From a virus (Duplodnaviria; Heunggongvirae; Uroviricota; Caudoviricetes), in the IMG/VR virus record IMGVR_UViG_2663762648_000013: a stretch of 61,430 nt of DNA; one strand, 5' to 3'. Below, piece after piece: positions 8,397-60,194 of this stretch. Each line of letters begins with the position of its first letter. Positions within the stretch are counted from its first letter, which is position 1. The position numbers were made by a program, and so were the translations under genes. Under the pieces are notes generated by a model, which saw nothing but the letters and a program-made list of their open reading frames with translations, was not told the DNA's origin and ran no database searches.

Positions 8397-9094
8397 TGCA
8401 GGATATACAGCAGGAAACACTCAATGAGTGCACTAAAACGGAGCAATCCGCGCTGGTCGTGCTCTGGGAAATTGATCTGACAGAGGTCGGCGGAGATCGT
8501 TATTTCTTCTGTAATGAGCAGAACGAAAAAGGTGAACCAGTCACCTGGCAGGGGCGGCAGTATCAGGCTTATCCCATTCAGGGAAGCGGATTTGAGATGA
8601 ACGGCAAAGGAGCCAGTGCAAGGCCAACGCTTAAAGTCTCTAATCTGTACGGCATGGTCACCGGGATGGCGGAAGACCTGCAGAGTCTGGTCGGCGGAAC
8701 GGTGGTCAGGCGTAAGGTTTACGCCCGTTTTCTGGATGCGGTGAACTTCGTCAACGGAAACAGTGACGCCGATCCGGAGCAGGAGGTGATCAGCCGCTGG
8801 CGCATCGAGCAGTGCAGCGAACTGAGCGCGGTGAGTGCCTCCTTTGTACTGTCCACGCCGACGGAAACGGATGGCGCTGTTTTTCCGGGGCGTATCATGC
8901 TGGCCAACACCTGCACCTGGACCTATCGCGGCGATGAGTGCGGTTATCACGGTCCGGCTGTCGCGGATGAATATGACCAGCCGACGTCCGATATCACGAA
9001 GGATAAATGCAGCAAATGCCTGAGCGGCTGTAAGTTTCGCAATAACGTCGGCAACTTTGGCGGCTTCCTTTCCATTAACAAACTTTCGCAGTAA
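8396..9094 (+). CDS. minor tail protein L (lambda gpL-like)
   Basis: 232-aa ORF; matches my recollection of lambda L nearly throughout ([12 protein letters not shown]...SINKLSQ). Confidence 0.9.
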   Translation: MQDIQQETLNECTKTEQSALVVLWEIDLTEVGGDRYFFCNEQNEKGEPVTWQGRQYQAYPIQGSGFEMNGKGASARPTLKVSNLYGMVTGMAEDLQSLVGGTVVRRKVYARFLDAVNFVNGNSDADPEQEVISRWRIEQCSELSAVSASFVLSTPTETDGAVFPGRIMLANTCTWTYRGDECGYHGPAVADEYDQPTSDITKDKCSKCLSGCKFRNNVGNFGGFLSINKLSQ

Positions 9095-9458: not shown

Positions 9459-9459
9459 N

Positions 9460-45113: not shown

Positions 45114-45383
45114 TTACCCCCTGAAGCCTGGCGGGATCGCACTGTCCGGCAACGAGACGGTGTTAACCTGTCGGAGCAACGTCTCAGGCCGAACACCTTT
45201 CGGCGCGAACAGGCCCTGGTATTCATTGGCGATGCTGTGTCGAATCACCTGCTCAGGTGTAAAACCCTGCTGACGGAATTTTTCCAGTTCCCGTATCGCC
45301 CCGTTAGCGCCCTGCTCCGTTCGAATCGGTTTTCGCAATGCCTGTCTGAACCGGACCCACTCATGCCAGAGTGTTTCCGGCAA
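45114..45383 (-). pseudogene. replication initiator C-terminal domain (YdaU-like), apparently frameshifted variant
   Basis: 89-aa ORF matches the C-terminus of the 285-aa protein at 51642-52499; upstream homologous coding continues in another frame across an A/T run near 45417-45422. Confidence 0.45.
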
Positions 45384-45552
45384 CCAATCGGGCAGCTCAA
45401 TAGCCTCCGGCTCGAATTTTTTAGACGCTCGTTTTTGGCGAGGGGGAGATCAGTATTTAGATCTTCCTCTTCCTCTTCCTCTGGTAACGCTTTTTGATCC
45501 GTTTGTGTAACGCTGGCAGCGTTACCTTTTCGTTTCAGTTCGCGTATTTTTG

Positions 45553-45804
45553 TTACTCGCTCGTTTGTAACCGCCCGTTTTTTTTAGAGCTTTTTCCGTT
45601 ATGACGTTCAAAGTTAGGTAGAGAAAGCCCTCCGTCATTTTCGACCAGCCATCCAACCTGAATTAACGCATCAGCAAAACCAGACATAAAAGTGATGCGA
45701 TCTATTGCACTTTTTGTAACGCCGCGAGCGTTACAATCTGCATTACCGTCTATCATTTGTTGATCCGCCCATGCCCAGAAGCGAATAACCTGAGGTAGCC
45801 TGAG
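45553..45804 (-). CDS. hypothetical early-region protein, partial (interrupted at N 45805)
   Basis: Duplicate of 49674-49911. Confidence 0.35.
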   Translation of the reverse strand, partial: LRLPQVIRFWAWADQQMIDGNADCNARGVTKSAIDRITFMSGFADALIQVGWLVENDGGLSLPNFERHNGKSSKKNGRLQTSE

Positions 45805-45805
45805 T

Positions 45806-46436
45806 TTAACGGACNGCGGTGTAGATTGGTATCGCGCAGAGAATACACACAGCCACAATATTCCTGCTGATAGAATTTTTCGCGCTTGCTGATTTCAATC
45901 ATACGGGACGAGCCGCCCTGCTTGCGCCAGTTATAATCCCAGTACACCATGCCCGGATAATGCGCGACGGCTCGCCGCCCACAGTCGTTAACCTGCTGCA
46001 TATTTTTCCAGCGTGAAATGCCCAGTGAACTGCTGATCACACTGAAACCATTTTCAGCGGCGTACAGCGCTGTCCGCTCAAAACGCATGTCAAAACACAT
46101 GGTGCAACGGATCCCTCGTTCGGGCTCCCATTCCATTCCTTTGGCTCGTTCAAACCAGTTGTCTGTGTCGTAATCAGCATCAATAAACGGCACGCCGTGT
46201 TGTTCAGCAAAGCGAATATTCTCATCCTTACGAATTAAATACTCTTTCTGAGGATGAATGTTCGGGTTGTAGAAAAAGATGGTGTAGTCGATTCCCGAGG
46301 CCTGAAGCGCCTCCATCACCTCACCGGAACATGGAGCACAGCAAGAGTGCAGTAGTAGTTTGTTTGCCCCGTTTGGGAGCTCCAATTTGGGCCGTTTGAA
46401 ATCAGCAACTGTCATAAATATGTTTATTGGGGTCAT
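45806..46436 (-). CDS. epoxyqueuosine reductase QueH-like protein (DUF208), 3' end at N 45805
   Basis: N-terminal [11 protein letters not shown] motif and C-terminal EYCGCVYS, as I recall for QueH. Confidence 0.65.
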
Positions 46437-46583
46437 AAAAATATCAAAGAGTGTAGCATTAGAACGGGGCTATCGGAAACAGATGTGTGACTGCTCCCCG
46501 CCCTTTCGGGTGGTCTCCTGATGATTTGAGGGTGCAGAAATCCCTCCGGTTAAGGATTAAATTTTTAACAGTGCTAAATTTAA

Positions 46584-46940
46584 TTATTCAGTTCTGGATT
46601 TTGTCGCCCTGCGTATCCGCGCTTTCGCGTTACGCTCAATCTGTATCAGCTTTTCTATATTTCTCCGCCTTTCCTGTTCCTCCTGGCGCAATAGCCTTAC
46701 ATCATCTGCCAGTCTGGTTTCTCTTTTTGCCACAGAGAGCATCCAGTCAAACGGCTCCACAACCGCACCGCAGATTTTACAGCGGACCTGACGCTCTTTT
46801 TCGTCAACCCGTACAGAGGCGTGATGGCAATATGGTCTTTCCGATGGCTCATAAAGAAAATTAACCTGATTACGAGGGTCATCCTCTTTTACCGGAAATA
46901 AAACGATATTGCTTAACTCATCTTCTGGTTTTATTTCCAT
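46584..46940 (-). CDS. hypothetical protein (118 aa) with Cys/His cluster and basic coiled-coil tail
   Basis: ORF 46584-46997 trimmed to ATG 46940 preceded by AAAGGAGAGGAG. Confidence 0.45.
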   Translation of the reverse strand: MEIKPEDELSNIVLFPVKEDDPRNQVNFLYEPSERPYCHHASVRVDEKERQVRCKICGAVVEPFDWMLSVAKRETRLADDVRLLRQEEQERRRNIEKLIQIERNAKARIRRATKSRTE

Positions 46941-46997
46941 GCTCCTCTCCTTTGATGCGAATGCCAGCGGTAATTGAAGCCTGATAGCTAATTTCAT

Positions 46998-47420
46998 TCA
47001 CAGTATCGCCTCCTGAAAATTACCCTGATAGAAAGCCAGTACACGCTGCATAGCTTCGCTCTTCCGGCACTCGCGACAGATTATATTCAGGCGCCTGTCG
47101 TAGCGGCGTATTTCTCCGTCAGGTAATGACCAGATAAGGTCCGGATCAACAACAACCGGTTTCCTCACCTTTACTCTCGAGAGTTTTTTGCGGGCGCTTT
47201 GCCAGTCCTTGCGAGCCTGTTCAGACGGGAATAAGCCGTAGCCAGAATTATATACATCACCACTTGCGACCAGTTCTATGCATAAGCGACCGACAGACGC
47301 ACGACTGATACCTGTTTCATCTGACAACTGCCGAATCGTGACCCGACCGTCCTGATGCACGAGTTCCACAATTCGCGTCTTCAGTTCTTCCCGCTGTTCG
47401 GGAGTAAAAGGTTTCGCCAT
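46998..47420 (-). CDS. winged-helix DNA-binding protein (third, more diverged paralogue)
   Basis: 140-aa ORF with conserved ...DVYNSGYGLFPSEQARKDW...CRECRKSE. Confidence 0.55.
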   Translation of the reverse strand: MAKPFTPEQREELKTRIVELVHQDGRVTIRQLSDETGISRASVGRLCIELVASGDVYNSGYGLFPSEQARKDWQSARKKLSRVKVRKPVVVDPDLIWSLPDGEIRRYDRRLNIICRECRKSEAMQRVLAFYQGNFQEAIL

Positions 47421-47434
47421 AAATCCTCCTGAAA

Positions 47435-48181
47435 CTACTTAACAACCCTCGAATGGCTAACATTCGGACGCCAGCTCTCCCAGTTAAAATTCACCCAGCG
47501 CCCGCCGTTCATGACCATGCGATCCATCACCCGCTCGCCGAGCAATGTTTTCATCACCTCATAGTTCAGGTTTGTCAGCATCCCCACGCTGCGCATCGAC
47601 GCTGTCCGGCGATCAACAATCTGGTGCAGCACCACCTGCTCGTTTTTCGTCTCGCGCTGAATGCCAATTTCATCAAGAACCAGCAGATCCACTTCGCACA
47701 GCTCCCGCAAAAATTTTTCGCCTGACTGCCCGTCGTCATAGCTGGCGTGCAGGGCGCTCATAACATCAGCCACGGTAACCACAATCACTGTCTGACCGTC
47801 TTTCAGCAGGCGATTCCCGATAGCTGCCGCTAAGTGATTCTTCCCGGTACCAGGTTTTCCGCTGAACGCAAAATTTGTACACCCGGTCATCAGTTCATCG
47901 GCGATGGATTTCGCCTGGCTTAACGCGTATCGCTGGCCGTCGTTCTGCACCTGGTAATTCGCAAACGAGCATTTACGGTGCAACGGCTGGATGCCTGAGC
48001 GATTCAGAATTTTTTCCACCCGCAACTGACGATTCTGACGGTTGATCTCCTCACAACGTTTCTGGCCTTCGGAAAGTTGCCACTCGCGCCACTCCGCTAC
48101 CGTCTTGAATGGCGCGGTTACATGTGACGGGGCCAGTCTGCGGATACGTTCAAGAACGTCGCCTGTCGCAATATTTTTCAT
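47435..48181 (-). CDS. DnaC-like replication protein / helicase loader (YdaV-like), second allele
   Basis: 248-aa ORF with Walker A/B motifs. Confidence 0.85.
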   Translation of the reverse strand: MKNIATGDVLERIRRLAPSHVTAPFKTVAEWREWQLSEGQKRCEEINRQNRQLRVEKILNRSGIQPLHRKCSFANYQVQNDGQRYALSQAKSIADELMTGCTNFAFSGKPGTGKNHLAAAIGNRLLKDGQTVIVVTVADVMSALHASYDDGQSGEKFLRELCEVDLLVLDEIGIQRETKNEQVVLHQIVDRRTASMRSVGMLTNLNYEVMKTLLGERVMDRMVMNGGRWVNFNWESWRPNVSHSRVVK

Positions 48182-48187
48182 GGTCAG

Positions 48188-48820
48188 TTACCCCCTGAAG
48201 CCTGGCGGGATCGCACTGTCCGGCAACGAGACGGTGTTAACCTGTCGGAGCAACGTCTCAGGCCGAACACCTTTCGGCGCGAACAGGCCCTGGTATTCAT
48301 TGGCGATGCTGTGTCGAATCACCTGCTCAGGTGAAAAACCCTGCTGGCGGAATTTTTCCAGCTCCCGTATCGCCCCGTTAGCGCCCTGCTCCGTTCGAAT
48401 CGGTTTTCGCAATGCCTGGCGAAATTCAACCCACTCACGCCAAAGCGAGACAGAAATCCAGTTCGGCAAAGCAATATCCAGAGGGTCAAACTTTTTGACA
48501 CCTCGATTCCCCCGGGGGGGATTTAGGGGGGGATCTGTTTTTAGATCTTTATCTGTATCTTTATTAGTTGCCTTTGTGTTGACATCATGTTCAAACACCA
48601 CTTCAACATCTGTTTGAACACCTGTTAAATTTCTCTCTTGTTTTGTTTGAACATCTGCTTCCTTTCTGCTTCTTCTGGCCTGAACAGATGCTTTTCCTGC
48701 GGCTGATTTTTTGGTTAATTTTTCCCTGACTGATGCCAGATCTTCCTCAATCCGAAGATGCACCCATTCCTCGCCGTTATCGCAAAAAAACTCCTGCAAG
48801 GATGGTTCAACATCAGCCAC
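48188..48820 (-). CDS. YdaU-like replication protein, 3' two-thirds (part of chimeric ORF 48188-49228)
   Basis: Identical to 51642-52270; joins DnaC-like sequence at about 48821. Confidence 0.4.
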   Translation of the reverse strand: MADVEPSLQEFFCDNGEEWVHLRIEEDLASVREKLTKKSAAGKASVQARRSRKEADVQTKQERNLTGVQTDVEVVFEHDVNTKATNKDTDKDLKTDPPLNPPRGNRGVKKFDPLDIALPNWISVSLWREWVEFRQALRKPIRTEQGANGAIRELEKFRQQGFSPEQVIRHSIANEYQGLFAPKGVRPETLLRQVNTVSLPDSAIPPGFRG

Positions 48821-49228
48821 GGTAACCACAATCACTGTCTGACCGTCTTTCAGCAGGCGATTCCCGATAGCTGCCGCTAAGTGGTTCTTCCCGGTACCAG
48901 GTTTTCCGCTGAACGCAAAATTTGTACACCCGGTCATCAGTTCATCAGCGATGGATTTCGCCTGACTCAACGCGTATCGCTGCGCTTCGTTCTGCACCTG
49001 GTAATTCGAAAACGAGCATTTGCGGTGCAATGGCTGGATGCCAGAGCGATTCAGAATTTTTTCCACCCGCAACTGACGATTCTGACGGTTGATCTCCTCA
49101 CAACGTTTCTGGCCTTCGGAAAGTTGCCACTCGCGCCACTCCGCTACCGTCTTGAATGGCGCGGTTACATGTGACGGGGCCAGTCTGCGGATACGTTCAA
49201 GAACGTCGCCTGTCGCAATATTTTTCAT
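48821..49228 (-). CDS. DnaC-like replication protein, N-terminal part (fused in-frame to preceding fragment)
   Basis: Identical to the N-terminal region of the ydaV-like genes. Confidence 0.4.
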
Positions 49229-49234
49229 GGTCCG

Positions 49235-49504
49235 TTACCCCCTGAAGCCTGGCGGGATCGCACTATCCGGTAACGAGACGGTGTTAACCTGTCGGAGTAA
49301 CGTCTCAGGTCGAACACCTTTCGGCGCGAACAAGCCCTGGTATTCATTGGCGATGCTGTGTCGAATCACCTGCTCAGGTGTAAAACCCTGCTGACGGAAT
49401 TTTTCCAGTTCCCGTATCGCCCCGTTAGCGCCCTGCTCCGTTCGAATCGGTTTTCGCAATGCCTGTCTGAACCGGACCCACTCATGCCAGAGTGTTTCCG
49501 GCAA
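49235..49504 (-). pseudogene. YdaU-like C-terminal domain, duplicate of 45114-45383
   Basis: Identical 89-aa ORF. Confidence 0.4.
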
Positions 49505-49673
49505 CCAATCGGGCAGCTCAATAGCCTCCGGCTCGAATTTTTTAGACGCTCGTTTTTGGCGAGGGGGAGATCAGTATTTAGATCTTCCTCTTCCTCTTCC
49601 TCTGGTAACGCTTTTTGATCCGTTTGTGTAACGCTGGCAGCGTTACCTTTTCGTTTCAGTTCGCGTATTTTTG

Positions 49674-49911
49674 TTACTCGCTCGTTTGTAACCGCCCGTT
49701 TTTTTTAGAGCTTTTTCCGTTATGACGTTCAAAGTTAGGTAGAGAAAGCCCTCCGTCATTTTCGACCAGCCATCCAACCTGAATTAACGCATCAGCAAAA
49801 CCAGACATAAAAGTGATGCGATCTATTGCACTTTTTGTAACGCCGCGAGCGTTACAATCTGCATTACCGTCTATCATTTGTTGATCCGCCCATGCCCAGA
49901 AGCGAATAACC
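49674..49911 (-). CDS. hypothetical early-region protein (about 80 aa); 5' end abuts IS element
   Basis: ORF 49674-49937 in track; start lies inside the predicted IS end. Confidence 0.35.
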
Positions 49912-49975
49912 TGAGGTAGCCTGAGTTTAACGGACACTCCTTCCTGAAATAGAATGGCATCAGAAGGAGCTAATA

Positions 49976-50278
49976 ATGAGCAGAAAAACCCAACGTTACT
50001 CTAAAGAGTTCAAAGCCGAAGCTGTCAGAACGGTTCCTGAAAATCAACTTTCGATCAGTGAAGGCGCTTCCCGATTATCTCTTCCTGAAGGCACTTTAGG
50101 ACAATGGGTTACCGCCGCCAGAAAAGGGCTCGGTACTCCTGGTTCCCGCACGGTGGCTGAACTGGAATCTGAAATTCTGCAACTGCGTAAGGCGTTAAAT
50201 GAAGCTCGCCTTGAGCGAGATATATTAAAAAAAGCAACAGCGTATTTTGCACAGGAGTCGCTGAAAAATACGCGTTAA
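49976..50278 (+). CDS. IS3-family transposase OrfA
   Basis: 100-aa HTH/leucine-zipper ORF with an A7G slippery run (50227-50234). Confidence 0.8.
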   Translation: MSRKTQRYSKEFKAEAVRTVPENQLSISEGASRLSLPEGTLGQWVTAARKGLGTPGSRTVAELESEILQLRKALNEARLERDILKKATAYFAQESLKNTR

Positions 50279-50313
50279 TCGAACAATGGCGACAACAATT
50301 TCCCATTGAAGCG

Positions 50314-51009
50314 ATGTGTCAGGTATTTGGTGTATCCAGGAGCGGTTATTACAACTGGGTACAGCATGAACCCTCAGACAGAAAACAAAGTGATGAGCGG
50401 CTAAAACTGGAGATTAAGGTGGCACATATCCGCACTCGCGAAACATATGGAACCCGGCGGCTCCAGACGGAGCTGGCAGAGAATGGCATCATCGTTGGTC
50501 GTGACCGACTGGCACGTCTTCGTAAGGAGCTAAGGCTACGCTGTAAGCAGAAACGCAAGTTCAGAGCGACTACGAACTCGAACCACAATCTGCCAGTTGC
50601 GCCAAATCTGCTGAACCAGACGTTCGCTCCTACAGCACCAAATCAGGTCTGGGTGGCGGACCTGACGTATGTTGCCACACAGGAGGGATGGTTGTACCTC
50701 GCTGGCATCAAAGATGTTTATACGTGCGAAATTGTCGGCTACGCCATGGGAGAGCGCATGACAAAAGAGCTGACAGGTAAAGCCCTGTTTATGGCGCTCA
50801 GGAGCCAGCGCCCACCTGCCGGGCTAATCCACCACTCTGATCGAGGTTCACAGTACTGCGCATACGATTACCGGGTCATACAGGAGCAGTCTGGTCTGAA
50901 AACATCAATGTCGCGTAAAGGTAACTGTTACGACAACGCTCCGATGGAAAGCTTCTGGGGAACGCTGAAAAATGAGAGCCTGAGCCACTATCGTTTTAAT
51001 AACCGGGAT
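50314..51009 (+). CDS. IS3-family transposase OrfB (catalytic domain), truncated at N
   Basis: -1 frame relative to orfA; frame is open back to the slippery run. Confidence 0.75.
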
Positions 51010-51010
51010 N

Positions 51011-51635
51011 CCTCATAGTTCAGGTTTGTCAGCATCCCCACGCTGCGCATCGACGCTGTCCGGCGATCAACAATCTGGTGCAGCACCACCTGCTCGTTTT
51101 TCGTCTCGCGCTGAATGCCAATTTCATCAAGAACCAGCAGATCCACTTCGCATAGTTCCCGCAAAAATTTTTCGCCTGACTGCCCATCGTCATAGCTGGC
51201 GTGCAGGGCACTCATAACATCAGCCACGGTAACCACAATCACTGTCTGACCGTCTTTCAGCAGGCGATTCCCGATAGCTGCCGCTAAGTGGTTCTTCCCG
51301 GTACCAGGTTTTCCGCTGAACGCAAAATTTGTACACCCGGTCATCAGTTCATCAGCGATGGATTTCGCCTGACTCAACGCGTATCGCTGCGCTTCGTTCT
51401 GCACCTGGTAATTCGAAAACGAGCATTTGCGGTGCAATGGCTGGATGCCAGAGCGATTCAGAATTTTTTCCACCCGCAACTGACGATTCTGACGGTTGAT
51501 CTCCTCACAACGTTTCTGGCCTTCGGAAAGTTGCCACTCGCGCCACTCCGCTACCGTCTTGAATGGCGCGGTTACATGTGACGGGGCCAGTCTGCGGATA
51601 CGTTCAAGAACGTCGCCTGTCGCAATATTTTTCAT
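51011..51635 (-). CDS. DnaC-like replication protein (YdaV-like), 3' end lost at N 51010
   Basis: ORF 50988-51635 with Walker motifs; follows ydaU. Confidence 0.6.
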
Positions 51636-51641
51636 GGTCAG

Positions 51642-52499
51642 TTACCCCCTGAAGCCTGGCGGGATCGCACTATCCGGTAACGAGACGGTGTTAACCTGTC
51701 GGAGTAACGTCTCAGGTCGAACACCTTTCGGCGCGAACAAGCCCTGGTATTCATTGGCGATGCTGTGTCGAATCACCTGCTCAGGTGAAAAACCCTGCTG
51801 GCGGAATTTTTCCAGCTCCCGTATCGCCCCGTTAGCGCCCTGCTCCGTTCGAATCGGTTTTCGCAATGCCTGGCGAAATTCAACCCACTCACGCCAAAGC
51901 GAGACAGAAATCCAGTTCGGCAAAGCAATATCCAGAGGGTCAAACTTTTTGACACCTCGATTCCCCCGGGGGGGATTTAGGGGGGGATCTGTTTTTAGAT
52001 CTTTATCTGTATCTTTATTAGTTGCCTTTGTGTTGACATCATGTTCAAACACCACTTCAACATCTGTTTGAACACCTGTTAAATTTCTCTCTTGTTTTGT
52101 TTGAACATCTGCTTCCTTTCTGCTTCTTCTGGCCTGAACAGATGCTTTTCCTGCGGCTGATTTTTTGGTTAATTTTTCCCTGACTGATGCCAGATCTTCC
52201 TCAATCCGAAGATGCACCCATTCCTCGCCGTTATCGCAAAAAAACTCCTGCAAGGATGGTTCAACATCAGCCCATCGCTCGTTAGTCAGACGGGCAATTT
52301 TTGCCAGCCTGTTTTTAGGTATTGGCTTTCCTGTTTGCCAGTAATTGAACATCAGCAACAAATACGCACCATGCTCCTCTGCTGACAAATGCATGGTGTC
52401 AGCCAGGTAATCAGCTATGTACAGTTGCATGTATGGTAATGCGGCCATAATTGCCCCGTATGATGCTGCCCGGTGGCTTAGAATAAGCACAAACAGCAT
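51642..52499 (-). CDS. ydaU: replication protein YdaU-like (DUF1376 N-terminus plus DnaT-like C-terminus)
   Basis: 285-aa ORF; position between ydaT-like and DnaC-like genes as in Rac. Confidence 0.75.
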   Translation of the reverse strand: MLFVLILSHRAASYGAIMAALPYMQLYIADYLADTMHLSAEEHGAYLLLMFNYWQTGKPIPKNRLAKIARLTNERWADVEPSLQEFFCDNGEEWVHLRIEEDLASVREKLTKKSAAGKASVQARRSRKEADVQTKQERNLTGVQTDVEVVFEHDVNTKATNKDTDKDLKTDPPLNPPRGNRGVKKFDPLDIALPNWISVSLWREWVEFRQALRKPIRTEQGANGAIRELEKFRQQGFSPEQVIRHSIANEYQGLFAPKGVRPETLLRQVNTVSLPDSAIPPGFRG

Positions 52500-52511
52500 G
52501 GAAACTTTTGC

Positions 52512-52934
52512 TTAATGAACAATGACAGAATCGTCGGAAGACCCGCCGCCGCTGAAATGCGCTTTCCGGTAAACGGCTTGGACTGCATCATCATGCGCAT
52601 CAATTGCCGTACTTAACGCTTCCTGCGCCGCCAGTAATGCACGGCGTTCCAGGGTATCGAAGATGCAGAGTCGGTGACGCAGCTCGCGCGGAAGGATTGC
52701 CAGAATTGCTGGGATCAGCTTCTGAATTTTTTCTCTTTGCGTTTTCGTTTCACCTTTCAACCAACGGTGATAGATATTCTGCTGATTATTCCAGTCCTTG
52801 CCTGGTACCAGGGGCAATTCGCCGCCCCCCTGGCGCAGATATTCTTCAGTAATGGCATTGGCTACCCATGCCTGCCCTTTTTCGGCTGCCAGGGCTAACA
52901 ACACTGACTCGATGTGCTCATGCTTGATTTTCAT
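52512..52934 (-). CDS. ydaT: YdaT-like protein
   Basis: 140-aa ORF downstream of Cro-like gene. Confidence 0.65.
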   Translation of the reverse strand: MKIKHEHIESVLLALAAEKGQAWVANAITEEYLRQGGGELPLVPGKDWNNQQNIYHRWLKGETKTQREKIQKLIPAILAILPRELRHRLCIFDTLERRALLAAQEALSTAIDAHDDAVQAVYRKAHFSGGGSSDDSVIVH

Positions 52935-53185
52935 GAATCAACTCCCATCAGCTTTTTCGTAGTAGTTTTATTTCTGCCAATAGTTAAAATTACATCAGCA
53001 GAAAATAATCCGTTTGATGCATGAGCGATTTTTTCAGCGTAATTTGTTTCGCCGGTATATTCTGTGCGAGGCAATTTTCCGTTATCCATCCATTTGTAGA
53101 TTGCTCTTTGGCTGACACCACAAACGTCGGCCACAACAGAAACGCGAACAGTTTTGATTACATCTTCAAGTGTTTTCTGGTTCAT
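52931..53185 (-). CDS. ydaS: Cro-like HTH regulator (YdaS-like)
   Basis: ORF 52931-53257 trimmed to ATG 53185 preceded by GAGGGTGA; divergent from racR. Confidence 0.6.
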   Translation of the reverse strand: MNQKTLEDVIKTVRVSVVADVCGVSQRAIYKWMDNGKLPRTEYTGETNYAEKIAHASNGLFSADVILTIGRNKTTTKKLMGVDS

Positions 53186-53246
53186 ATCACCCTCACAATG
53201 TGAACTTTGAGTACATGCTATAACAGAACTGACAGTACATTCAAGA

Positions 53247-53684
53247 GTGAATATCATTGAACTTATGGTTCATGAAGATAAAGCGCGTAAAGAGTTCGCC
53301 AGTAGGCTTGCGCTAGCCTGTGAAAACGCTGGTTATGAACAACATGGAAGGCAGGCAGAAATTGCCCGTCGAATGAAATTAACACCAAAAGCGGTTAGCA
53401 AATGGTTTAATGGCGAAACAATTCCTCGCCGAGAGAAATTAAGGGAATTAGCAACACTCATTGGAACAACACCAACCTATCTTTTGGGAGAGGATACAGA
53501 AGAAAGTGGACAGGTACGTTTCTATCAGGAGTTAAATCCAAGACAAAAAATCATCATTGACCTTCTGGACGAGCTCCCTGACAGTGAGACAGATGAACTT
53601 TTAAAAACTCTTGAGGAGAAAAAACAGAAGTACAATGCAATTTACGAAGAGCTAGCACGAAAGAAAAAACAAAAAGCCTCTTAA
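53247..53684 (+). CDS. racR: prophage repressor (RacR-like, XRE-type HTH)
   Basis: 145-aa ORF with HTH (QAEIARRMKLTPKAVSKW), divergently arranged with cro-like gene. Confidence 0.7.
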   Translation: MNIIELMVHEDKARKEFASRLALACENAGYEQHGRQAEIARRMKLTPKAVSKWFNGETIPRREKLRELATLIGTTPTYLLGEDTEESGQVRFYQELNPRQKIIIDLLDELPDSETDELLKTLEEKKQKYNAIYEELARKKKQKAS

Positions 53685-53974
53685 ACCAGCATAAATCCGG
53701 TAGCGTCCCCCTCCGGGTTTGTGCTTCACTTTATCCCATCTCATTTTTTTACACACAAAATGTACTTATAGTACTTTACATCAATGAACACAAAGTACAT
53801 TATATACCTACCAACCCACCCCGCCCCACAGAACGCAGGGCAATACTTCGAGTTACCAGGCAGTGGTCAGGGGTTAAGTAGCCAGCCCGAGGCGTATGAA
53901 CATGACGGCAGGGTTCAGATTTTGCAGTGCAGCAGGTTTCAGTTCCGCCACCCGGCGTTAAGGGGAGAGATAAG

Positions 53975-54109
53975 ATGGTGCATTACGAAGTAGTTCAGTA
54001 TTTGATGGATTGTTGCGGTATCACTTACAACCAGGCTGTGCAGGCTTTACGCAGCAACGACTGGGATCTCTGGCAGGCAGAAGTCGCTATACACAGCAAC
54101 AAGATGTGA
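53975..54109 (+). CDS. ydaG: small Rac protein (YdaG-like, 44 aa)
   Basis: ATG 53975 preceded by AAGGGGAGAG; ORF 53927-54109 in track. Confidence 0.45.
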   Translation: MVHYEVVQYLMDCCGITYNQAVQALRSNDWDLWQAEVAIHSNKM

Positions 54110-54119
54110 GATTCGCAAA

Positions 54120-54275
54120 ATGCAAAAAATCGACCTCGGCAACAACGAATCCCTGGTGTGCGGCGTGTTCCCCAACCAGGATGGAACGTTCACTGCCATG
54201 ACGTATACCAAAAGCAAAACATTTAAAACCGAAACTGGTGCGCGCCGATGGTTGGAGAAGCACACAGTAAGCTAA
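54120..54275 (+). CDS. ydaF: small Rac protein (YdaF-like, 51 aa)
   Basis: Hand-translated MQKIDLGNNESLVCGVF...; weak SD; convergent with sieB. Confidence 0.4.
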   Translation: MQKIDLGNNESLVCGVFPNQDGTFTAMTYTKSKTFKTETGARRWLEKHTVS

Positions 54276-54760
54276 CGATTAAAACGTCTACTCCTGCTGT
54301 TCCAGAATAACTTCATAAAATGGGAGTATTTTTCGGTGACGAGATAATAAGAACAGTTTGCGCTATCACTCTGATGTTGAATGATGCCCTTCCGTTCTAA
54401 TTTTTTCATAACCGGGTTACGGCAAGGAGAAGTGATAATAAGATTTCCTGTTTTAAGGAAATCTTTAAATACAGCGATTTCTTTCTCAGATAAACGAAGC
54501 AATACTCGTTGCTCTGGTAGTAATGAATAATGCTTTTGAATATGTGCTCGCAATCTTGAGAAGGAAATGGCGACCACGAAAGAAAAGGCAAAAACGATAA
54601 TCTGAAAGAGCCAAGGTATTTCAGTATAAGCATTGAATGCGACAGTAAACTCTTTCGGTATCAGCCAGAGAGTGAGACCAAAAATGATAATCGTATACAT
54701 AAGTATTTCGAGTGGCTCGTTAGCAAAAAGTTTCAACAATGGAGTAAATACATCCAACAT
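54272..54760 (-). CDS. sieB: superinfection exclusion protein B
   Basis: ORF 54272-54883 trimmed to internal ATG giving 162 aa (MLDVFTPLLKLFANEPLE...); membrane helices. Confidence 0.8.
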   Translation of the reverse strand: MLDVFTPLLKLFANEPLEILMYTIIIFGLTLWLIPKEFTVAFNAYTEIPWLFQIIVFAFSFVVAISFSRLRAHIQKHYSLLPEQRVLLRLSEKEIAVFKDFLKTGNLIITSPCRNPVMKKLERKGIIQHQSDSANCSYYLVTEKYSHFMKLFWNSRSRRFNR

Positions 54761-55201
54761 ATCAATAACTCTCAACTGTAAGGGTATTGAAATGTTAACA
54801 CAAGCTCTCGCTGTAGGGGTATAGCCGAGACCACCGAAGCCCGGAGGTGGTGAAATAAAACCGGGCACAACACGAAGGCGCATTTCCGATATCCATAAAG
54901 AGTCGGTCTTGTCTGTTAAATTTAAATGGTGGGAGTGCGCCTCCGGTTGTAAATAACGACATTGCTGTGTGTAGTCCTGGCGGCATCAGTTTTTTTCTTG
55001 AAGTTCGGCTGATGTCCGCCCTTTTTAAAGTGAATTTTGTGATGCGGTGAATGCGGCTAAGCGCACGTGGCACAGTTAAAAGTCATGTTAGTCCTTATTG
55101 GTTTGGGTGGGAAAGCCGACTGTAATTGTTAACTGGTTGCAGTCACCTGGAGGCACCAGGCACCGCATCAACAAAGTTCATTTGTAAAAATGGAGATAAT
55201 T

Positions 55202-55423
55202 ATGATTGCACATCACTTCGGAACTGATGAAATACCACGTCAGTGTGTGACTCCTGGCGATTATGTTCTTCATGAAGGCCGGACATATATTGCCTCGGCA
55301 AACAATATTAAAAAGCGAAAACTATATATTCGTAACCTGACCACAAAAACATGCATTACTGACCGCATGATTAAAGTCTTCCTCGGTCGTGATGGTTTAC
55401 CTGTAAAGGCGGAGTCATGGTGA
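55202..55423 (+). CDS. kilR: FtsZ-inhibiting killing protein KilR
   Basis: 73 aa from ATG 55202 ([14 protein letters not shown]...) with GGAG SD. Confidence 0.75.
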
Positions 55424-55593
55424 TGACTAAGAAAATAAAATGTGCTTACCACCTTTGCAAAAAAGACGTTGAAGAAAGCAAAGCTATTGAAAGAATGCTT
55501 CACTTCATGCACGGGATTTTATCAAAAGACGAACCGAGAAAATATTGCAGTGAAGCTTGTGCCGAAAAAGACCAGATGGCACATGAACTTTAA
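55423..55593 (+). CDS. ydaE: small Cys-rich protein YdaE-like (56 aa)
   Basis: Hand-translated [14 protein letters not shown]...CSEACAEKDQMAHEL; ATG overlaps kilR stop (TGATG). Confidence 0.55.
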   Translation: MTKKIKCAYHLCKKDVEESKAIERMLHFMHGILSKDEPRKYCSEACAEKDQMAHEL

Positions 55594-55667
55594 TTAATTG
55601 ACTATTCGAAACTGAATTTATGCCAGAAATGGCAGGTATTCGCTCAACCTTAATTAAGGAGAAAAAC

Positions 55668-55943
55668 ATGATTACCAATTATGAAGCCACTGTTGTAACT
55701 ACCGATGACATTGTTCACGAGGTGAATCTGGAAGGAAAGCGCATTGGCTACGTAATTAAAACAGAAAATAAAGAAACCCCATTCACTGTGGTTGATATCG
55801 ATGGTCCATCAGGCAACGTAAAAACACTTGATGAAGGTGTCAAAAAAATGTGCCTGGTGCATATCGGAAAGAATCTGCCCGCAGAAAAAAAAGCCGAATT
55901 TCTGGCAACTCTAATTGCAATGAAATTAAAAGGTGAAATCTGA
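55668..55943 (+). CDS. racC: RacC
   Basis: ORF 55620-55943 trimmed to ATG 55668 preceded by AAGGAG; 91 aa. Confidence 0.65.
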   Translation: MITNYEATVVTTDDIVHEVNLEGKRIGYVIKTENKETPFTVVDIDGPSGNVKTLDEGVKKMCLVHIGKNLPAEKKAEFLATLIAMKLKGEI

Positions 55944-56044
55944 AAGAAATAGCCTGCGTATGGCGCAGGCTATGAACAGTGTGTATCCGGCAAGATCATT
56001 CACTGAACAAAACGAATTTTAATCTGAGTTGAGGTTAAAAAACA

Positions 56045-58645
56045 ATGAGCACAAAACCACTCTTCCTGTTACGGAAAGCGAAAAAATCATCCGGTGAACC
56101 TGACGTCGTCCTGTGGGCAAGCAACGATTTTGAATCGACCTGTGCCACTCTGGACTACCTGATCGTTAAGTCAGGTAAAAAACTGAGCAGCTATTTTAAA
56201 GCTGTTGCCACGAATTTTCCTGTCGTTAATGACCTGCCCGCTGAAGGTGAGATCGATTTTACCTGGAGTGAACGCTATCAACTCAGCAAAGACTCCATGA
56301 CATGGGAACTAAAACCGGGAGCAGCACCAGACAACGCTCACTATCAAGGCAATACCAACGTCAACGGCGAAGACATGACTGAGATTGAGGAGAATATGCT
56401 ACTCCCAATTTCTGGCCAGGAACTGCCCATTCGTTGGCTTGCTCAACACGGCAGCGAAAAACCGGTAACGCACGTTTCACGCGACGGACTCCAGGCATTA
56501 CACATTGCTCGGGCTGAAGAACTACCGGCTGTTACTGCCCTGGCTGTTTCCCACAAAACCAGCCTGCTCGACCCGCTGGAAATTCGCGAACTCCACAAAC
56601 TGGTTCGTGACACTGACAAAGTTTTCCCTAATCCTGGTAATTCAAACCTGGGACTGATAACTGCTTTTTTCGAAGCATACCTGAACGCTGACTACACCGA
56701 TCGAGGACTGCTGACAAAAGAGTGGATGAAGGGTAATCGTGTTTCACACATCACTCGCACGGCTTCCGGTGCTAATGCTGGCGGCGGAAACCTCACCGAT
56801 CGCGGCGAAGGTTTCGTACACGATCTGACGTCACTGGCGCGGGACGTAGCCACTGGCGTACTGGCCCGTTCAATGGATCTGGACATCTATAACCTTCATC
56901 CGGCACACGCTAAACGCATTGAGGAAATTATCGCTGAAAATAAACCGCCCTTTTCTGTTTTCCGCGACAAATTCATCACCATGCCTGGCGGGCTGGATTA
57001 TTCCCGCGCCATCGTGGTTGCGTCCGTAAAAGAAGCACCAATTGGGATCGAGGTCATCCCCGCGCACGTCACTGAATATCTGAACAAAGTACTGACTGAA
57101 ACCGATCATGCCAACCCTGATCCGGAAATCGTGGATATTGCCTGCGGTCGCTCCTCTGCCCCGATGCCGCAGCGAGTAACAGAAGAAGGAAAACAGGATG
57201 ATGAAGAAAAACCGCAACCATCTGGAACAACGGCAGTTGAACAGGGAGAGGCTGAAACAATGGAACCGGACGCAACTGAACATCATCAGGACACGCAGCC
57301 GCTGGATGCTCAGTCACAGGTAAATTCTGTTGATGCGAAATATCAGGAACTGCGGGCAGAACTCCATGAAGCCCGGAAAAACATTCCATCAAAAAATCCT
57401 GTCGATGCCGATAAATTGCTTGCTGCATCACGTGGTGAATTTGTTGACGGAATTAGCGACCCGAACGATCCGAAATGGGTAAAGGGGATCCAGACTCGCG
57501 ATTGTGTGTACCAGAACCAGCCAGAAACGGAAAAAACCAGCCCGGATATGAATCAACCTGAGCCAGTAGTGCAACAGGAACCGGAAATAGCCTGCAATGC
57601 CTGCGGCCAGACTGGCGGGGATAACTGCCCTGACTGTGGTGCGGTGATGGGCGACGCAACATACCAGGAAACATTCGATGAAGAGAGTCAGGTTGAAGCT
57701 AAGGAAAATGATCCGGAGGAAATGGAAGGCGCTGAACATCCGCACAATGAGAATGCTGGCAGCGATCCGCATCGCGATTGCAGTGATGAAACTGGCGAAG
57801 TCGCAGATCCCGTAATCGTAGAAGACATAGAGCCAGGTATTTATTACGGAATTTCGAATGAGAATTACCACGCGGGTCCCGGTGTCAGTAAGTCTCAGCT
57901 CGATGACATTGCTGATACTCCGGCACTGTATTTGTGGCGTAAAAATGCCCCCGTGGACACCACAAAGACAAAAACGCTCGATTTAGGAACCGCTTTCCAC
58001 TGCCGGGTACTTGAGCCGGAAGAATTCAGTAACCGCTTTATCGTAGCACCTGAATTTAACCGCCGGACAAACTCCGGAAAAGAAGAAGAGAAAGCGTTTC
58101 TGAGGGAATGCGCAAGCACAGGAAAAACGGTTATCACTGCCGAAGAAGGCCGGAAAATTGAACTCATGTATCAGAGCGTTATGGCTTTGCCGCTGGGGCA
58201 ATGGCTTGTTGAAAGCGCCGGACACGCTGAATCATCAATTTACTGGGAAGATCCTGAAACAGCAATTTTGTGTCGGTGCCGTCCGGACAAAATTATCCCT
58301 GAATTTCACTGGATCATGGACGTGAAAACTACGGCGGATATTCAACGATTCAAAACCGCTTATTACGACTACCGCTATCACGTTCAGGATGCATTCTACA
58401 GTGACGGTTATGAAGCACAGTTTGGAGTGCAGCCAACTTTCGTTTTTCTGGTTGCCAGCACAACTATTGAATGCGGACGTTATCCGGTTGAAATTTTCAT
58501 GATGGGCGAAGAAGCAAAACTGGCAGGTCAGCTGGAATATCACCGCAATCTGCGAACCCTGGCTGACTGCCTCAATACCGATGAATGGCCAGCTATTAAG
58601 ACGTTATCACTGCCCCGCTGGGCTAAGGAATATGCAAATGACTAA
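56045..58645 (+). CDS. recE: exodeoxyribonuclease VIII (RecE)
   Basis: 866-aa ORF; gene order recE-recT. Confidence 0.9.
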
Positions 58646-59447
58646 GCAACCACCAATCGCAAAAGCCGATCTGCAAAAAACTCAGGGAAACCGTGCACCA
58701 GCAGCAATTAAAAATAACGACGTGATTAGTTTTATTAACCAGCCATCAATGAAAGAGCAACTGGCAGCAGCTCTTCCACGCCATATGACGGCTGAACGTA
58801 TGATCCGTATCGCCACCACAGAAATTCGTAAAGTTCCGGCGTTAGGAAACTGTGACACTATGAGTTTTGTCAGTGCAATCGTACAGTGTTCACAGCTCGG
58901 ACTTGAGCCCGGTAGCGCCCTCGGTCATGCATATTTACTGCCTTTTGGTAATAAAAACGAAAAGAGCGGTAAAAAAAACGTTCAGCTAATCATTGGCTAT
59001 CGCGGCATGATTGATCTGGCTCGCCGTTCAGGTCAAATCGCCAGCCTGTCAGCCCGTGTTGTCCGTGAAGGTGACGAGTTTAATTTCGAATTTGGCCTTG
59101 ATGAAAAGTTAATACACCGCCCAGGAGAAAACGAAGATGCCCCTGTTACCCACGTCTATGCTGTCGCAAGACTGAAAGACGGAGGTACTCAGTTTGAAGT
59201 TATGACGCGCAAACAGATTGAGCTGGTGCGCAGCCAGAGTAAAGCTGGTAATAACGGGCCGTGGGTAACTCACTGGGAAGAAATGGCAAAGAAAACGGCT
59301 ATTCGTCGCCTGTTCAAATATCTGCCCGTATCAATTGAGATCCAGCGTGCAGTATCAATGGATGAAAAGGAACCACTGACAATCGATCCTGCAGATTCCT
59401 CTGTATTAACCGGGGAATACAGTGTAATCGATAATTCAGAGGAATAA
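58638..59447 (+). CDS. recT: recombinase RecT
   Basis: ORF 58581-59447 trimmed to ATG 58638 ([13 protein letters not shown]...), overlapping recE stop. Confidence 0.9.
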
Positions 59448-59502
59448 TTCAGCCTGGCGGTGTAATGCACCGCCAACTTGAAATATTTTTATGAGAAAAA
59501 TT

Positions 59503-59652
59503 ATGAGATATGACAATGTTAAACCATGTCCATTTTGTGGTTGTCCATCAGTAACGGTGAAAGCCATTTCAGGATATTACCGAGCGAAGTGTAACGGATG
59601 CGAATCCCGAACCGGTTATGGTGGAAGTGAAAAAGAAGCACTCGAACGATGA
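59503..59652 (+). pseudogene. ralR: ralR-like toxin gene with premature in-frame TGA (49 codons)
   Basis: MRYDNVKPCPFCGCPSV...EKEALER then TGA at 59650-59652; the same frame continues ...NKRTTGNNNGGVHV to TAA 59695-59697. Confidence 0.45.
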
Positions 59653-59689
59653 AATAAACGAACCACTGGAAATAATAATGGAGGTGTTC

Positions 59690-59878
59690 ATGTATAAAAT
59701 TACCGCCACTATTGAAAAGGAAGGTGGCACTCCTACTAACTGGACAAGATATTCAAAATCTAAACTAACGAAATCAGAATGCGAAAAAATGCTCTCAGGT
59801 AAAAAAGAAGCAGGCGTTTCCAGAGAGCAGAAAGTAAAACTGATAAATTTTAATTGCGAGAAACTTCAGTCCTCGTGA
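59690..59878 (+). CDS. ydaC: YdaC-like protein (62 aa)
   Basis: ATG 59690 preceded by GGAGGTG; ORF 59618-59878 in track. Confidence 0.6.
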   Translation: MYKITATIEKEGGTPTNWTRYSKSKLTKSECEKMLSGKKEAGVSREQKVKLINFNCEKLQSS

Positions 59879-59977
59879 ATTGCATTGTATTCAAATTAAA
59901 ACTTCATAGCTGATTATTAATAATCAACATCGGGCGTCAATTTAAGTCTAACATTGGCGCCTGCCAGAGGTGATGCG

Positions 59978-60193
59978 ATGGCACAAGTAATCTTTAATGA
60001 AGAGTGGATGGTTGAATACGGCCTGATGCTTCGCACTGGTCTGGGGGCCAGACAAATTGAAGCATACCGCCAGAACTGTTGGGTGGAAGGCTTCCACTTC
60101 AAACGAGTATCTCCTTTAGGGAAGCCAGACAGTAAGCGAGGGATTATCTGGTATAACTATCCAAAGATAAATCAGTTTATCAAAGACTCATGA
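59978..60193 (+). CDS. xisR: excisionase (XisR-like)
   Basis: ORF 59954-60193 trimmed to [10 protein letters not shown]...; directly upstream of integrase. Confidence 0.7.
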
Positions 60194-60194
60194 T

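What the first reader, a model, noticed from the sequence alone, without database searches (positions are those of the whole stretch)
45806..46436. QueH-like (DUF208) epoxyqueuosine reductase homologue in the prophage early region
The ORF has the QueH hallmarks [11 protein letters not shown] and a C-terminal CGC motif. As I recall, E. coli makes queuosine with QueG, not QueH, so a phage-borne QueH-like gene would be an accessory function. It could affect host tRNA Q-modification during infection or belong to a 7-deazaguanine-type DNA-modification pathway. It is co-oriented with replication genes, and its 3' end abuts a scaffold N, so context and completeness are uncertain.
Basis: partly seen in the sequence, partly recalled or inferred. 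Interest (0 to 1): 0.6.

Follow-up and report, generated by a model that had tools for sequence, protein, structure and literature searches.

The report
Prophage-borne QueH tRNA-modification gene
This is a real and apparently functional copy of queH, the vitamin-B12-independent enzyme for the last step of queuosine tRNA modification, carried as cargo by a Rac-like prophage; about one in five E. coli genomes have it and databases already name it, so it is ordinary, though nobody seems to have asked why a phage carries it.

Summary
On the minus strand, 46415→45816 encodes 200 of the 221 residues of an epoxyqueuosine reductase QueH (Pfam PF02677, E=1.4e-65, whole profile). All six family-invariant cysteines are present. 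T. maritima QueH is the best match by sequence and by fold. The gene is cut by a contig junction (the single N at 45815); what follows the N belongs to a replication gene from another contig.

The same gene is intact and annotated "epoxyqueuosine reductase QueH" in 995 of 5426 complete E. coli genomes. It always lies just after the replication module of Rac/Qin-type lambdoid prophages. The cobamide-dependent queG is in all 5426. Prophage copies are under strong purifying selection (dN/dS 0.03–0.07). A conserved extended −10-like motif (TGCTACAYT, 43 nt upstream) travels with the gene. No Tgt/DpdA-like, QueA, QueC, QueD, QueE, QueF, QueG or FolE homologue lies nearby, so the DNA-modification idea is not supported.

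Best reading: a self-contained accessory cassette that gives lysogens a B12-independent oQ→Q step on host tRNA. The gene identity is already known. The biology of a phage-borne copy appears unstudied and is modestly interesting.

The parts
45816..46415 (-). queH coding sequence: codons 1-200 of 221, cut at the contig end. The complete Pfam QueH domain is present. The C-terminal 21 residues and the stop codon are missing from the window.
   Evidence: Pfam PF02677 E=1.4e-65. 100% identical to the annotated QueH of NZ_CP065613. PDB 7lc5 E=6e-22. Invariant C25, C26, C29, C104, C107, C187, C189.
46450..46458 (-). Extended -10-like promoter motif TGCTACACT, 43 nt upstream of the start codon (inferred own promoter).
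   Evidence: Present at -43/-44 in 79/79 IMG/VR copies. Present at -42 to -44 in 7 of 8 Enterobacter, Kluyvera, Scandinavium and Symbiopectobacterium loci whose upstream DNA is otherwise unrelated. Not picked up by the -35/-10 consensus scan.
46416..46486 (-). Leader and promoter region that travels with the gene (upstream limit of the conserved cassette).
   Evidence: Homology between prophage copies in different contexts starts 48-71 nt upstream of the ATG and stops about 5 nt after the stop codon. No Rfam match and no significant fold.
45815..45815 (.). Single N: contig junction that truncates queH. The sequence to its left (45117-45814, minus strand) is a replication-initiator gene from another contig.
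   Evidence: N positions. The tail of full-length QueH is not found anywhere in the window. YdaU C-terminal homology at 45117-45449.
46584..48181 (-). Context, same contig, upstream and co-oriented: hypothetical Zn-ribbon protein (46584-46997, phrog_1621), DUF977/Ren-like (46998-47420), and the DnaC-like ATPase YdaV (47435-48181). This is the replication module of a Rac-type prophage.
   Evidence: Pfam and PHROG scans. Same gene order in NZ_CP065613.

Best explanation
The ORF is a bona fide queH gene. QueH is an epoxyqueuosine reductase containing a [4Fe-4S] cluster plus an extra iron site. It reduces the epoxide of epoxyqueuosine (oQ34) to queuosine (Q34) in tRNA-Asp, -Asn, -His and -Tyr without cobalamin.

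Here it is a single-gene cargo cassette: about 70 nt of leader with an extended -10 promoter, plus the gene. It is inserted directly downstream of the replication module (ydaU/ydaV-DUF1627/DUF977) and upstream of the hokD/nin-like/Q-antiterminator region of Rac/Qin-type lambdoid prophages.

Every E. coli already has the cobamide-dependent QueG but cannot make B12 de novo. The prophage copy therefore most likely makes the last step of Q-tRNA maturation independent of external corrinoids in lysogens. It would also be read through from pR after induction.

Shown: family membership, intact ligands, purifying selection, position, spread, and absence of partner genes. Inferred: enzymatic activity in E. 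coli, promoter function, expression in the lysogen, and benefit under B12 limitation.

In this window the gene is incomplete only because a contig ends inside it.
For: Family membership:
- Pfam QueH E=1.4e-65 over the full profile.
- phmmer to T. maritima QueH 7lc5 E=6e-22 over residues 20-195.
- The AF2 model's five best PDB matches are all T. maritima QueH, TM 0.6-0.7.
- The six Cys plus N52, E58, R62, E99, R103, R111, K137 and Q184 are invariant in 33 QueH sequences down to 36% identity.
- 82-89% identity to QueH encoded in ordinary, syntenic chromosomal loci of Photorhabdus, Providencia and Pantoea.

Maintenance under selection:
- dN/dS 0.03-0.07 at dS up to 0.45 among prophage copies.
- 79/79 complete IMG/VR copies are an intact 221 aa with all Cys.
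- Annotated intact QueH in 995/5426 complete E. coli genomes.
- Also present in an isolated temperate phage, HannyBb.

Redundant with the host enzyme:
- queG is in 5426/5426 genomes.
- QueG is one of E. coli's cobamide-dependent enzymes (PMC11841063).

A cassette with its own promoter:
- Homology limits are -48/-71 to +5.
- TGCTACAYT is conserved at -43 across unrelated upstream sequences.

Stand-alone gene:
- No Q-pathway or Tgt homologues in 944 kb of QueH prophage loci.
- No tRNA genes in the window.

From my own knowledge, not read here: Zallot et al. 2017 (ACS Chem Biol 12:844) showed that DUF208/QueH replaces QueG. Frey et al. 1988 (J Bacteriol 170:2078) showed that E. coli tRNA keeps oQ without B12.
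Against: - No experimental evidence for activity or expression of this prophage copy was found in the searchable literature.
- The promoter is only a conserved motif. The consensus -35/-10 scan found nothing on this strand, and there is no downstream terminator.
- There is no recognisable Shine-Dalgarno sequence before either ATG.
- oQ versus Q has no well-documented phenotype in E. coli, so the selective benefit is unclear.
- The AF2 model is only moderate (pLDDT 67), with low confidence around the metal-binding loops.
- No NCBIfam model matched.
Confidence: 0.7

Rival explanations
1. The same enzyme, but selected for the phage. It would be expressed mainly from pR after induction, to convert host oQ-tRNA to Q-tRNA and so tune decoding of NAU/NAC codons in phage late genes.
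For: The gene is co-oriented with, and immediately downstream of, the early-right replication genes in every context seen. No terminator separates them. An inducible or isolated phage, HannyBb, keeps it.
Against: A conserved gene-proximal promoter motif also occurs in non-phage loci. Many carriers are Rac/Qin-type, often defective, prophages, yet the gene remains under strong purifying selection. No difference in decoding between oQ and Q is known. The linked prophages carry no Q-family tRNAs.
Confidence: 0.15
2. Part of a 7-deazaguanine DNA-modification (anti-restriction) pathway of the phage, as in phages with DpdA plus preQ0/G+ genes.
For: It is a Q-pathway enzyme on a phage. In O157:H7 strain Z1486 the next genes are a cytosine methyltransferase and an NgoMIV-type endonuclease, so the site is a DNA-modification cargo hotspot.
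Against: No homologue of Tgt (proxy for DpdA), QueC, QueD, QueE, QueF, FolE or QueA in the window or in 85 loci, nor in five annotated contexts. Hutinet et al. 2019 found no QueA, QueG or QueH in the deazaguanine-modifying viruses they analysed (PMC6884629). No oQ or Q in DNA is known. The protein is 82-89% identical to chromosomal QueH in ordinary, non-phage loci.
Confidence: 0.02
3. A passenger gene without current function (a decaying remnant in cryptic prophages). The truncation in the window would reflect a real pseudogene.
For: The copy in the window lacks its last 21 codons. Many host prophages are defective, with IS insertions and pseudogenes nearby.
Against: The truncation coincides exactly with a scaffold N. 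The 600 nt present are 100% identical to an intact gene. dN/dS is 0.03-0.07. 79/79 copies are intact with all ligands.
Confidence: 0.03
4. A neofunctionalised QueH-fold reductase that acts on another substrate, for example a different modified nucleoside or a role in phage-host conflict.
For: It is redundant with the universal QueG. It lies in a cargo hotspot next to hokD, methyltransferases or R-M systems. PHROGs lists it as unknown function.
Against: Very high identity (82-89%) to chromosomal QueH in non-phage loci, with all family-invariant residues kept. No PADLOC match. No co-varying partner gene.
Confidence: 0.05

Closest known systems
QueH (DUF208, PF02677) epoxyqueuosine reductase; structure from Thermotoga maritima (PDB 7LC5, 7LC7, 9DEU)
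   Same: Full-length domain match, same fold, same CC...C / RCxxC / CGC metal-ligand pattern, same length class.
   Different: About 30% identity. T. maritima has Asp13 where this protein, and all 33 diverse homologues aligned here, have Cys (C29). This copy is phage-borne and redundant with the host QueG.
Chromosomal QueH of other Enterobacterales (Pantoea, Providencia, Photorhabdus, Erwinia, Serratia)
   Same: 82-89% amino-acid identity and the same length (214-222 aa). Many share the TGCTACAYT motif upstream.
   Different: Those genes lie in ordinary, genus-syntenic chromosomal loci without phage neighbours. The E. coli and E. albertii copies lie inside lambdoid prophages.
E. coli QueG (YjeS), cobalamin-dependent epoxyqueuosine reductase
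   Same: Catalyses the same reaction, oQ34 to Q34 in tRNA (established knowledge; PMC9508795).
   Different: An unrelated protein (no tBLASTn match). It needs a cobamide plus two [4Fe-4S] clusters. It is core, in 5426/5426 genomes, against 995/5426 for queH.
Phage 7-deazaguanine DNA-modification clusters (DpdA with FolE, QueD, QueE, QueC and others; phage 9g, CAjan)
   Same: Phage-encoded enzymes borrowed from the queuosine pathway.
   Different: Those clusters use the early (preQ0) steps plus a DNA transglycosylase, and they lack QueA, QueG and QueH (PMC6884629). Here only the last, tRNA-specific step is present and no transglycosylase.
Lambdoid-phage 'morons' and cargo genes in the replication-to-Q interval (hokD, Dcm-like methyltransferases, R-M systems)
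   Same: A single gene, seemingly with its own promoter, dropped between conserved phage modules. The boundaries are sharp and the neighbours vary.
   Different: No terminator was detected. The function is a housekeeping-type tRNA-modification step rather than a toxin, exclusion or DNA-modification function.

Membership tests
QueH / DUF208 (PF02677) | Profile-HMM match above the curated threshold over the whole domain | tested here: met
   221.1 bits against a cutoff of 23.5, E=1.4e-65, profile positions 1-174 of 175.
QueH / DUF208 (PF02677) | Conserved cysteine ligands for the [4Fe-4S] cluster and the adjacent iron (CCxxC/D, RCxxC, CGC) | tested here: met
   C25, C26, C29, C104, C107, C187 and C189 are present. 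They are invariant in 33 family members of 36-85% identity and align with T. maritima C9, C10, D13, C87, C90, C169 and C171. PDB holds C9S and D13N mutants of these positions.
QueH / DUF208 (PF02677) | QueH fold (adenine-nucleotide-alpha-hydrolase-like Rossmann core) | tested here: met
   The AF2 model (pLDDT 67, pTM 0.71) has all five top Foldseek PDB hits on T. maritima QueH, E about 3e-9 and TM 0.6-0.7. The next hits are TtuA, LarE and other PP-loop enzymes. Model quality is only moderate.
QueH / DUF208 (PF02677) | Complete open reading frame | tested here: inconclusive
   In the window the last 21 codons are cut off by a contig junction. The identical gene is complete in NZ_CP065613, and 79/79 IMG/VR copies are intact.
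QueH / DUF208 (PF02677) | Cobalamin-independent reduction of oQ34-tRNA to Q34-tRNA | not testable with these tools
   Needs delta-queG complementation with LC-MS, or an in-vitro assay.
QueH / DUF208 (PF02677) | Match to an NCBIfam model for QueH | tested here: inconclusive
   No NCBIfam family at E<=0.01. RefSeq/PGAP nevertheless names the protein QueH, so the name probably rests on another rule type.
Phage 7-deazaguanine DNA-modification system | DNA transglycosylase (DpdA/Tgt-like) encoded by the phage | tested here: not met
   No tBLASTn hit of E. coli Tgt at E<=0.01 in the window or in 85 QueH prophage loci, and none annotated in five contexts. Caveat: a very distant DpdA could escape tBLASTn.
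Phage 7-deazaguanine DNA-modification system | preQ0 synthesis genes (FolE, QueD, QueE, QueC) linked to it | tested here: not met
   No hits, and none annotated.
Lambdoid-phage moron (autonomous cargo cassette) | Own promoter | tested here: inconclusive
   The extended -10-like TGCTACAYT is conserved at -43 in otherwise unrelated upstream sequences. There are no transcript data, and it was not found by the -35/-10 scan.
Lambdoid-phage moron (autonomous cargo cassette) | Own terminator | tested here: not met
   No intrinsic-terminator-like site downstream in the complete copy L001.
Lambdoid-phage moron (autonomous cargo cassette) | Sharp insertion boundaries between conserved phage modules, with presence/absence polymorphism | tested here: met
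   Homology limited to -48/-71 through +5. Present in 18% of genomes. A closely related Rac prophage lacks it.

The most novel reading that the evidence does not exclude
Lysogenic conversion of the host epitranscriptome. A lambdoid-prophage cassette (own promoter plus queH) would make queuosine completion cobalamin-independent in about 18% of E. coli. It would shift tRNA from oQ34 to Q34 in corrinoid-poor niches, or during induction, with measurable effects on translation or fitness of the lysogen or phage. As far as I could find, this would be the first phage-borne enzyme of the Q-specific tRNA branch; Hutinet 2019 found none in the viruses they analysed.
Probability: 0.35. Interest if true: 0.5.

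Novelty: already known. Interest (0 to 1): 0.27.

Why it matters
The gene's identity adds nothing new. RefSeq already calls this exact protein QueH in about a thousand complete E. coli genomes, and the family is biochemically and structurally characterised.

Three things are mildly worthwhile:
- **Annotation gap.** Phage resources miss it. PHROG 3217 is listed as "unknown function" and is built on N-terminally truncated models that lack the CCAPC motif. Phage HannyBb calls it hypothetical.
- **An untested question.** A B12-independent back-up for a B12-dependent tRNA-modification step is maintained under strong purifying selection on prophages of a species that cannot make B12. This suggests, but does not show, that oQ versus Q matters physiologically, which has never been clearly demonstrated.
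- **A practical lesson.** The apparent truncation and the local context in this window are artefacts of a fragmented, scaffolded draft assembly.

Tried and rejected
- **Reading the ORF through the N (227 aa).** Rejected. The tail after the N is not QueH, and the flanking DNA is a replication gene from another contig.
- **Start codon at 46436.** Rejected in favour of 46415.
- **Linked Q or deazaguanine genes.** tBLASTn of E. coli QueA, Tgt, QueC, QueD, QueE, QueF, FolE and QueG against the window plus 85 prophage loci found nothing.
- **preQ1 or other riboswitch, or a structured leader.** No Rfam hit at E<=1, and fold z-score -1.1.
- **Phage tRNAs that would need Q.** None in the window. The linked prophages carry only Ile, Arg, Thr and Gly tRNAs.
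- **Defence-system membership.** No PADLOC hit.
- **Consensus promoter and terminator scans.** Nothing on the gene's strand. The extended -10 motif was found only by comparing loci.
- **Literature.** Searches for QueH or DUF208 with prophage, phage, E. coli or cobalamin found no paper on a prophage QueH. The 'queh' plus 'prophage' search was contaminated at least by surname matches such as Quehenberger. Zallot 2017 could not be opened.
- **Origin from a stable Enterobacter chromosomal locus.** Not supported. The Enterobacter copies (91-96% identity) lie in mutually non-syntenic places.

Full report
**1. What is in the sequence**

The window is not one continuous piece of genome. It contains eight single-base Ns, at 9459, 10985, 12442, 12519, 13791, 42392, 45815 and 51010. 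It also carries three similar copies of a DnaC-like ydaV gene. This is the signature of short contigs of a draft E. coli assembly joined into a scaffold.

The finding lies on the contig 45816-51009. On the minus strand an ORF starts at 46436 or 46415 and runs to the contig end at 45816.

The mechanical 227-aa ORF (45753-46436) crosses the N. Its last 20 residues are not QueH. The DNA left of the N belongs to a replication-initiator gene of another contig, with YdaU C-terminal homology at 45117-45449.

The complete protein is 221 aa (WP_012421537.1). The 600 nt present are 100% identical to the copy in E. coli FDAARGOS_944. The window therefore lacks the last 21 codons and the stop codon, and they occur nowhere else in the window.

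The ATG at 46415 is the likely start:
- The upstream ATG is ATT in a divergent copy.
- The N-termini of homologues align with 46415.
- RefSeq uses it.

**2. Family membership**

- Pfam QueH (PF02677) matches with E=1.4e-65 over profile positions 1-174 of 175.
- The only solved relatives by sequence are the T. maritima QueH entries (7lc5 and others), E=6e-22 over residues 20-195.
- An AlphaFold2 model is of moderate quality (pLDDT 67, pTM 0.71). Its five best PDB matches are all T. maritima QueH, including the C9S and D13N mutants and the queuosine complex, with TM 0.6-0.7. PP-loop enzymes such as TtuA and LarE follow.
- I aligned 33 QueH sequences down to 36% identity, drawn from a search of 1.8 billion cluster representatives (4721 hits). 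C25, C26, C29, C104, C107, C187 and C189 are invariant, as are N52, E58, R62, E99, R103, R111, K137 and Q184.
- T. maritima has Asp13 where this protein and all 33 homologues have Cys29.
- No NCBIfam model matched.

**3. Where it occurs**

The 600-nt coding fragment is found in 995 of 5426 complete E. coli genomes. Of these, 985 cover at least 80% of it, identity is 92-100%, and every hit listed is annotated "epoxyqueuosine reductase QueH". In contrast, queG is in all 5426 genomes.

In five annotated contexts the gene is always co-oriented with, and just downstream of, the replication module (ydaT-ydaU/O-like-ydaV-DUF1627/DUF977). It is always upstream of the region that leads to the late-gene antiterminator and the lysis genes: hokD, DUF1367/1364/1133 or DUF968, RusA and a Q-type antiterminator. 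These are Rac/Qin-type lambdoid prophages. The contexts are FDAARGOS_944, TUM14759, O157:H7 Z1486, ATCC 8739 and the isolated temperate phage HannyBb.

- IMG/VR holds at least 188 viral contigs with it. All 79 complete copies among the best 80 encode an intact 221-aa protein with every cysteine.
- Among 50,697 deposited phage genomes, only HannyBb is a credible phage isolate carrying it, and there it is labelled hypothetical.
- PHROGs has it as phrog_3217, "unknown function". That profile starts at Met34 and so lacks the CCAPC motif.
- Hutinet et al. 2019 reported no QueA, QueG or QueH homologues in the viruses they analysed (PMC6884629).

**4. Relatives outside E. coli**

The closest proteins (82-89% identity) are QueH of Erwinia, Pantoea, Photorhabdus, Providencia, Serratia and others. 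In Photorhabdus, Providencia and Pantoea the gene lies in ordinary chromosomal neighbourhoods that are syntenic within each genus and have no phage genes.

Of the 80 best species-representative loci, only E. albertii (99%) has lambdoid neighbours. Enterobacter, Scandinavium and Kluyvera copies (91-96%) lie in mutually non-syntenic places. There only the gene itself is shared.

**5. Evidence for function**

Pairwise dN/dS among prophage copies is 0.03-0.07, with dS up to 0.45. This is strong purifying selection, not decay.

Homology between copies in different prophages begins 48-71 nt upstream of the ATG and ends about 5 nt after the stop codon. The gene therefore moves as a tight cassette.

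Within that leader the motif TGCTACACT (window 46458→46450, minus strand) lies 43 nt upstream of the ATG. It matches TGnTAnnnT, the pattern of an extended -10 promoter. It is present in 79 of 79 IMG/VR copies. It also sits at -42 to -44 in 7 of 8 Enterobacter, Kluyvera, Scandinavium and Symbiopectobacterium loci whose upstream DNA is otherwise unrelated. The eighth has CGCTACAAT at the same place.

I infer that the gene carries its own promoter. This is an inference only:
- The -35/-10 consensus scan found nothing on this strand.
- There is no downstream terminator in a complete copy.
- There is no clear Shine-Dalgarno sequence.
- I have no transcript data.
- No riboswitch or structured leader was detected.

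**6. Partner genes**

tBLASTn with E. coli QueA, Tgt, QueC, QueD, QueE, QueF, FolE and QueG found nothing at E<=0.01 in the window plus 85 QueH-bearing prophage loci (944 kb). None is annotated in the five contexts. The window has no tRNA genes. The linked prophages carry tRNAs for Ile, Arg, Thr and Gly, not the Q-family tRNAs. PADLOC gives no match.

One caveat remains: a very distant DpdA could escape tBLASTn with Tgt.

**7. Most likely mechanism**

QueH reduces epoxyqueuosine to queuosine at position 34 of tRNA-Asp, -Asn, -His and -Tyr. It uses a [4Fe-4S] cluster and an adjacent iron, without cobalamin. This rests on the PDB entries seen, and on established knowledge of the family: Zallot et al. 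2017, cited, which I could not open, and Li et al. 2021, from memory.

E. coli's own enzyme, QueG, is cobamide-dependent (PMC11841063). E. coli does not make B12 de novo, and its tRNA keeps oQ without B12 (Frey et al. 1988, from my own knowledge).

The prophage cassette would therefore make the last step of Q maturation independent of corrinoid supply. It would act in the lysogen if the promoter is real, and by read-through from pR after induction.

Rival readings are scored in the rivals section. The first cannot be separated from the main reading without transcript and phenotype data; the second and third are contradicted by the data above; the last is only made unlikely by the high identity to chromosomal QueH:
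- a purely lytic-phase role in tuning phage translation;
- DNA modification;
- a decaying passenger gene;
- a neofunctionalised reductase.

**8. Comparison with what is known, and novelty**

The gene passes every membership test for QueH that can be run in silico. It is already named QueH in RefSeq in about a thousand complete genomes. Its identity is therefore already known.

I found no paper that addresses a prophage-borne QueH, so the biology of a phage-carried copy appears unstudied. It is a modestly interesting open point, not a surprise.

**9. Verdict**

QueH identity and accessory status hold, the DNA-modification idea does not, and the tRNA effect is plausible but untested.
- Interest is low to moderate.

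Noticed in passing
window 9459, 10985, 12442, 12519, 13791, 42392, 45815, 51010: Eight single-N contig joins. The window is a scaffold of short contigs from several similar Rac/lambdoid prophages, so adjacency across the Ns (for example queH next to a replication gene) is not evidence of linkage.
   Followed up: partly
window 48188-49228 (minus strand): Chimeric ORF: YdaV residues 1-140 fused at a shared 'ADV' to YdaU residues 77-285, followed by a complete ydaV (47435-48181). The ydaV 5' segment recurs at 44688, 47762 and 48809. The third copy is 98% identical to the allele on the neighbouring contig but only 96% to the adjacent one. This is either a real partial tandem duplication or recombination between two prophages, or an assembly chimera.
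   Followed up: partly
window 45816-46415 versus phrog_3217 and phage PP925841 (L002 7935-8621): Annotation gap in phage resources. PHROG 3217 ('unknown function') is this QueH, but its profile starts at Met34 and lacks the CCAPC ligand motif. Phage HannyBb annotates the gene as a hypothetical protein.
   Followed up: yes
loci L097-L176: This QueH clade keeps 80-88% amino-acid identity across Gamma-, Beta- and Alphaproteobacteria (Pseudomonas, Stenotrophomonas, Oxalicibacterium, Sphingomonas, Brevundimonas, Bradyrhizobium). In Enterobacter species it lies in mutually non-syntenic loci where only the gene is shared. That is unusually high conservation, or frequent horizontal transfer of a single-gene cassette.
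   Followed up: partly
L010 (E. coli O157:H7 Z1486) 6851-8861: In this prophage queH is followed directly by a DNA cytosine methyltransferase and an NgoMIV-family restriction endonuclease. In other prophages hokD, a DUF1971 gene or a truncated methyltransferase occupy the neighbouring slots. The replication-to-Q interval is a cargo hotspot.
   Followed up: no
window 49976-51009 and 51011-61430: An IS3-family transposase pair (HTH_Tnp_1 and rve domains) is cut by the contig end at 51009. The next contig is the left arm of a Rac prophage (ydaU at 51645-52499, recE, recT, and intR at 60195-61430). A 98.9% match in strain 08_3323 has IS3/IS600 insertions at corresponding places and carries no queH.
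   Followed up: partly
window 46584-46997 (minus strand): A 137-aa hypothetical protein with a weak zinc-ribbon signal (CxxC...CxxC; Pfam Zn_Ribbon_TF, below threshold) that matches phrog_1621 (unknown function). It lies between DUF977 and queH only in some prophages.
   Followed up: no
QueH residue 29 (window codon 46331-46329): T. maritima QueH has Asp13 (the subject of the D13N mutant structure 9DCO) where this protein and all 33 diverse homologues aligned here have Cys. The crystallised enzyme is therefore the atypical variant at this metal-site or catalytic position.
   Followed up: partly
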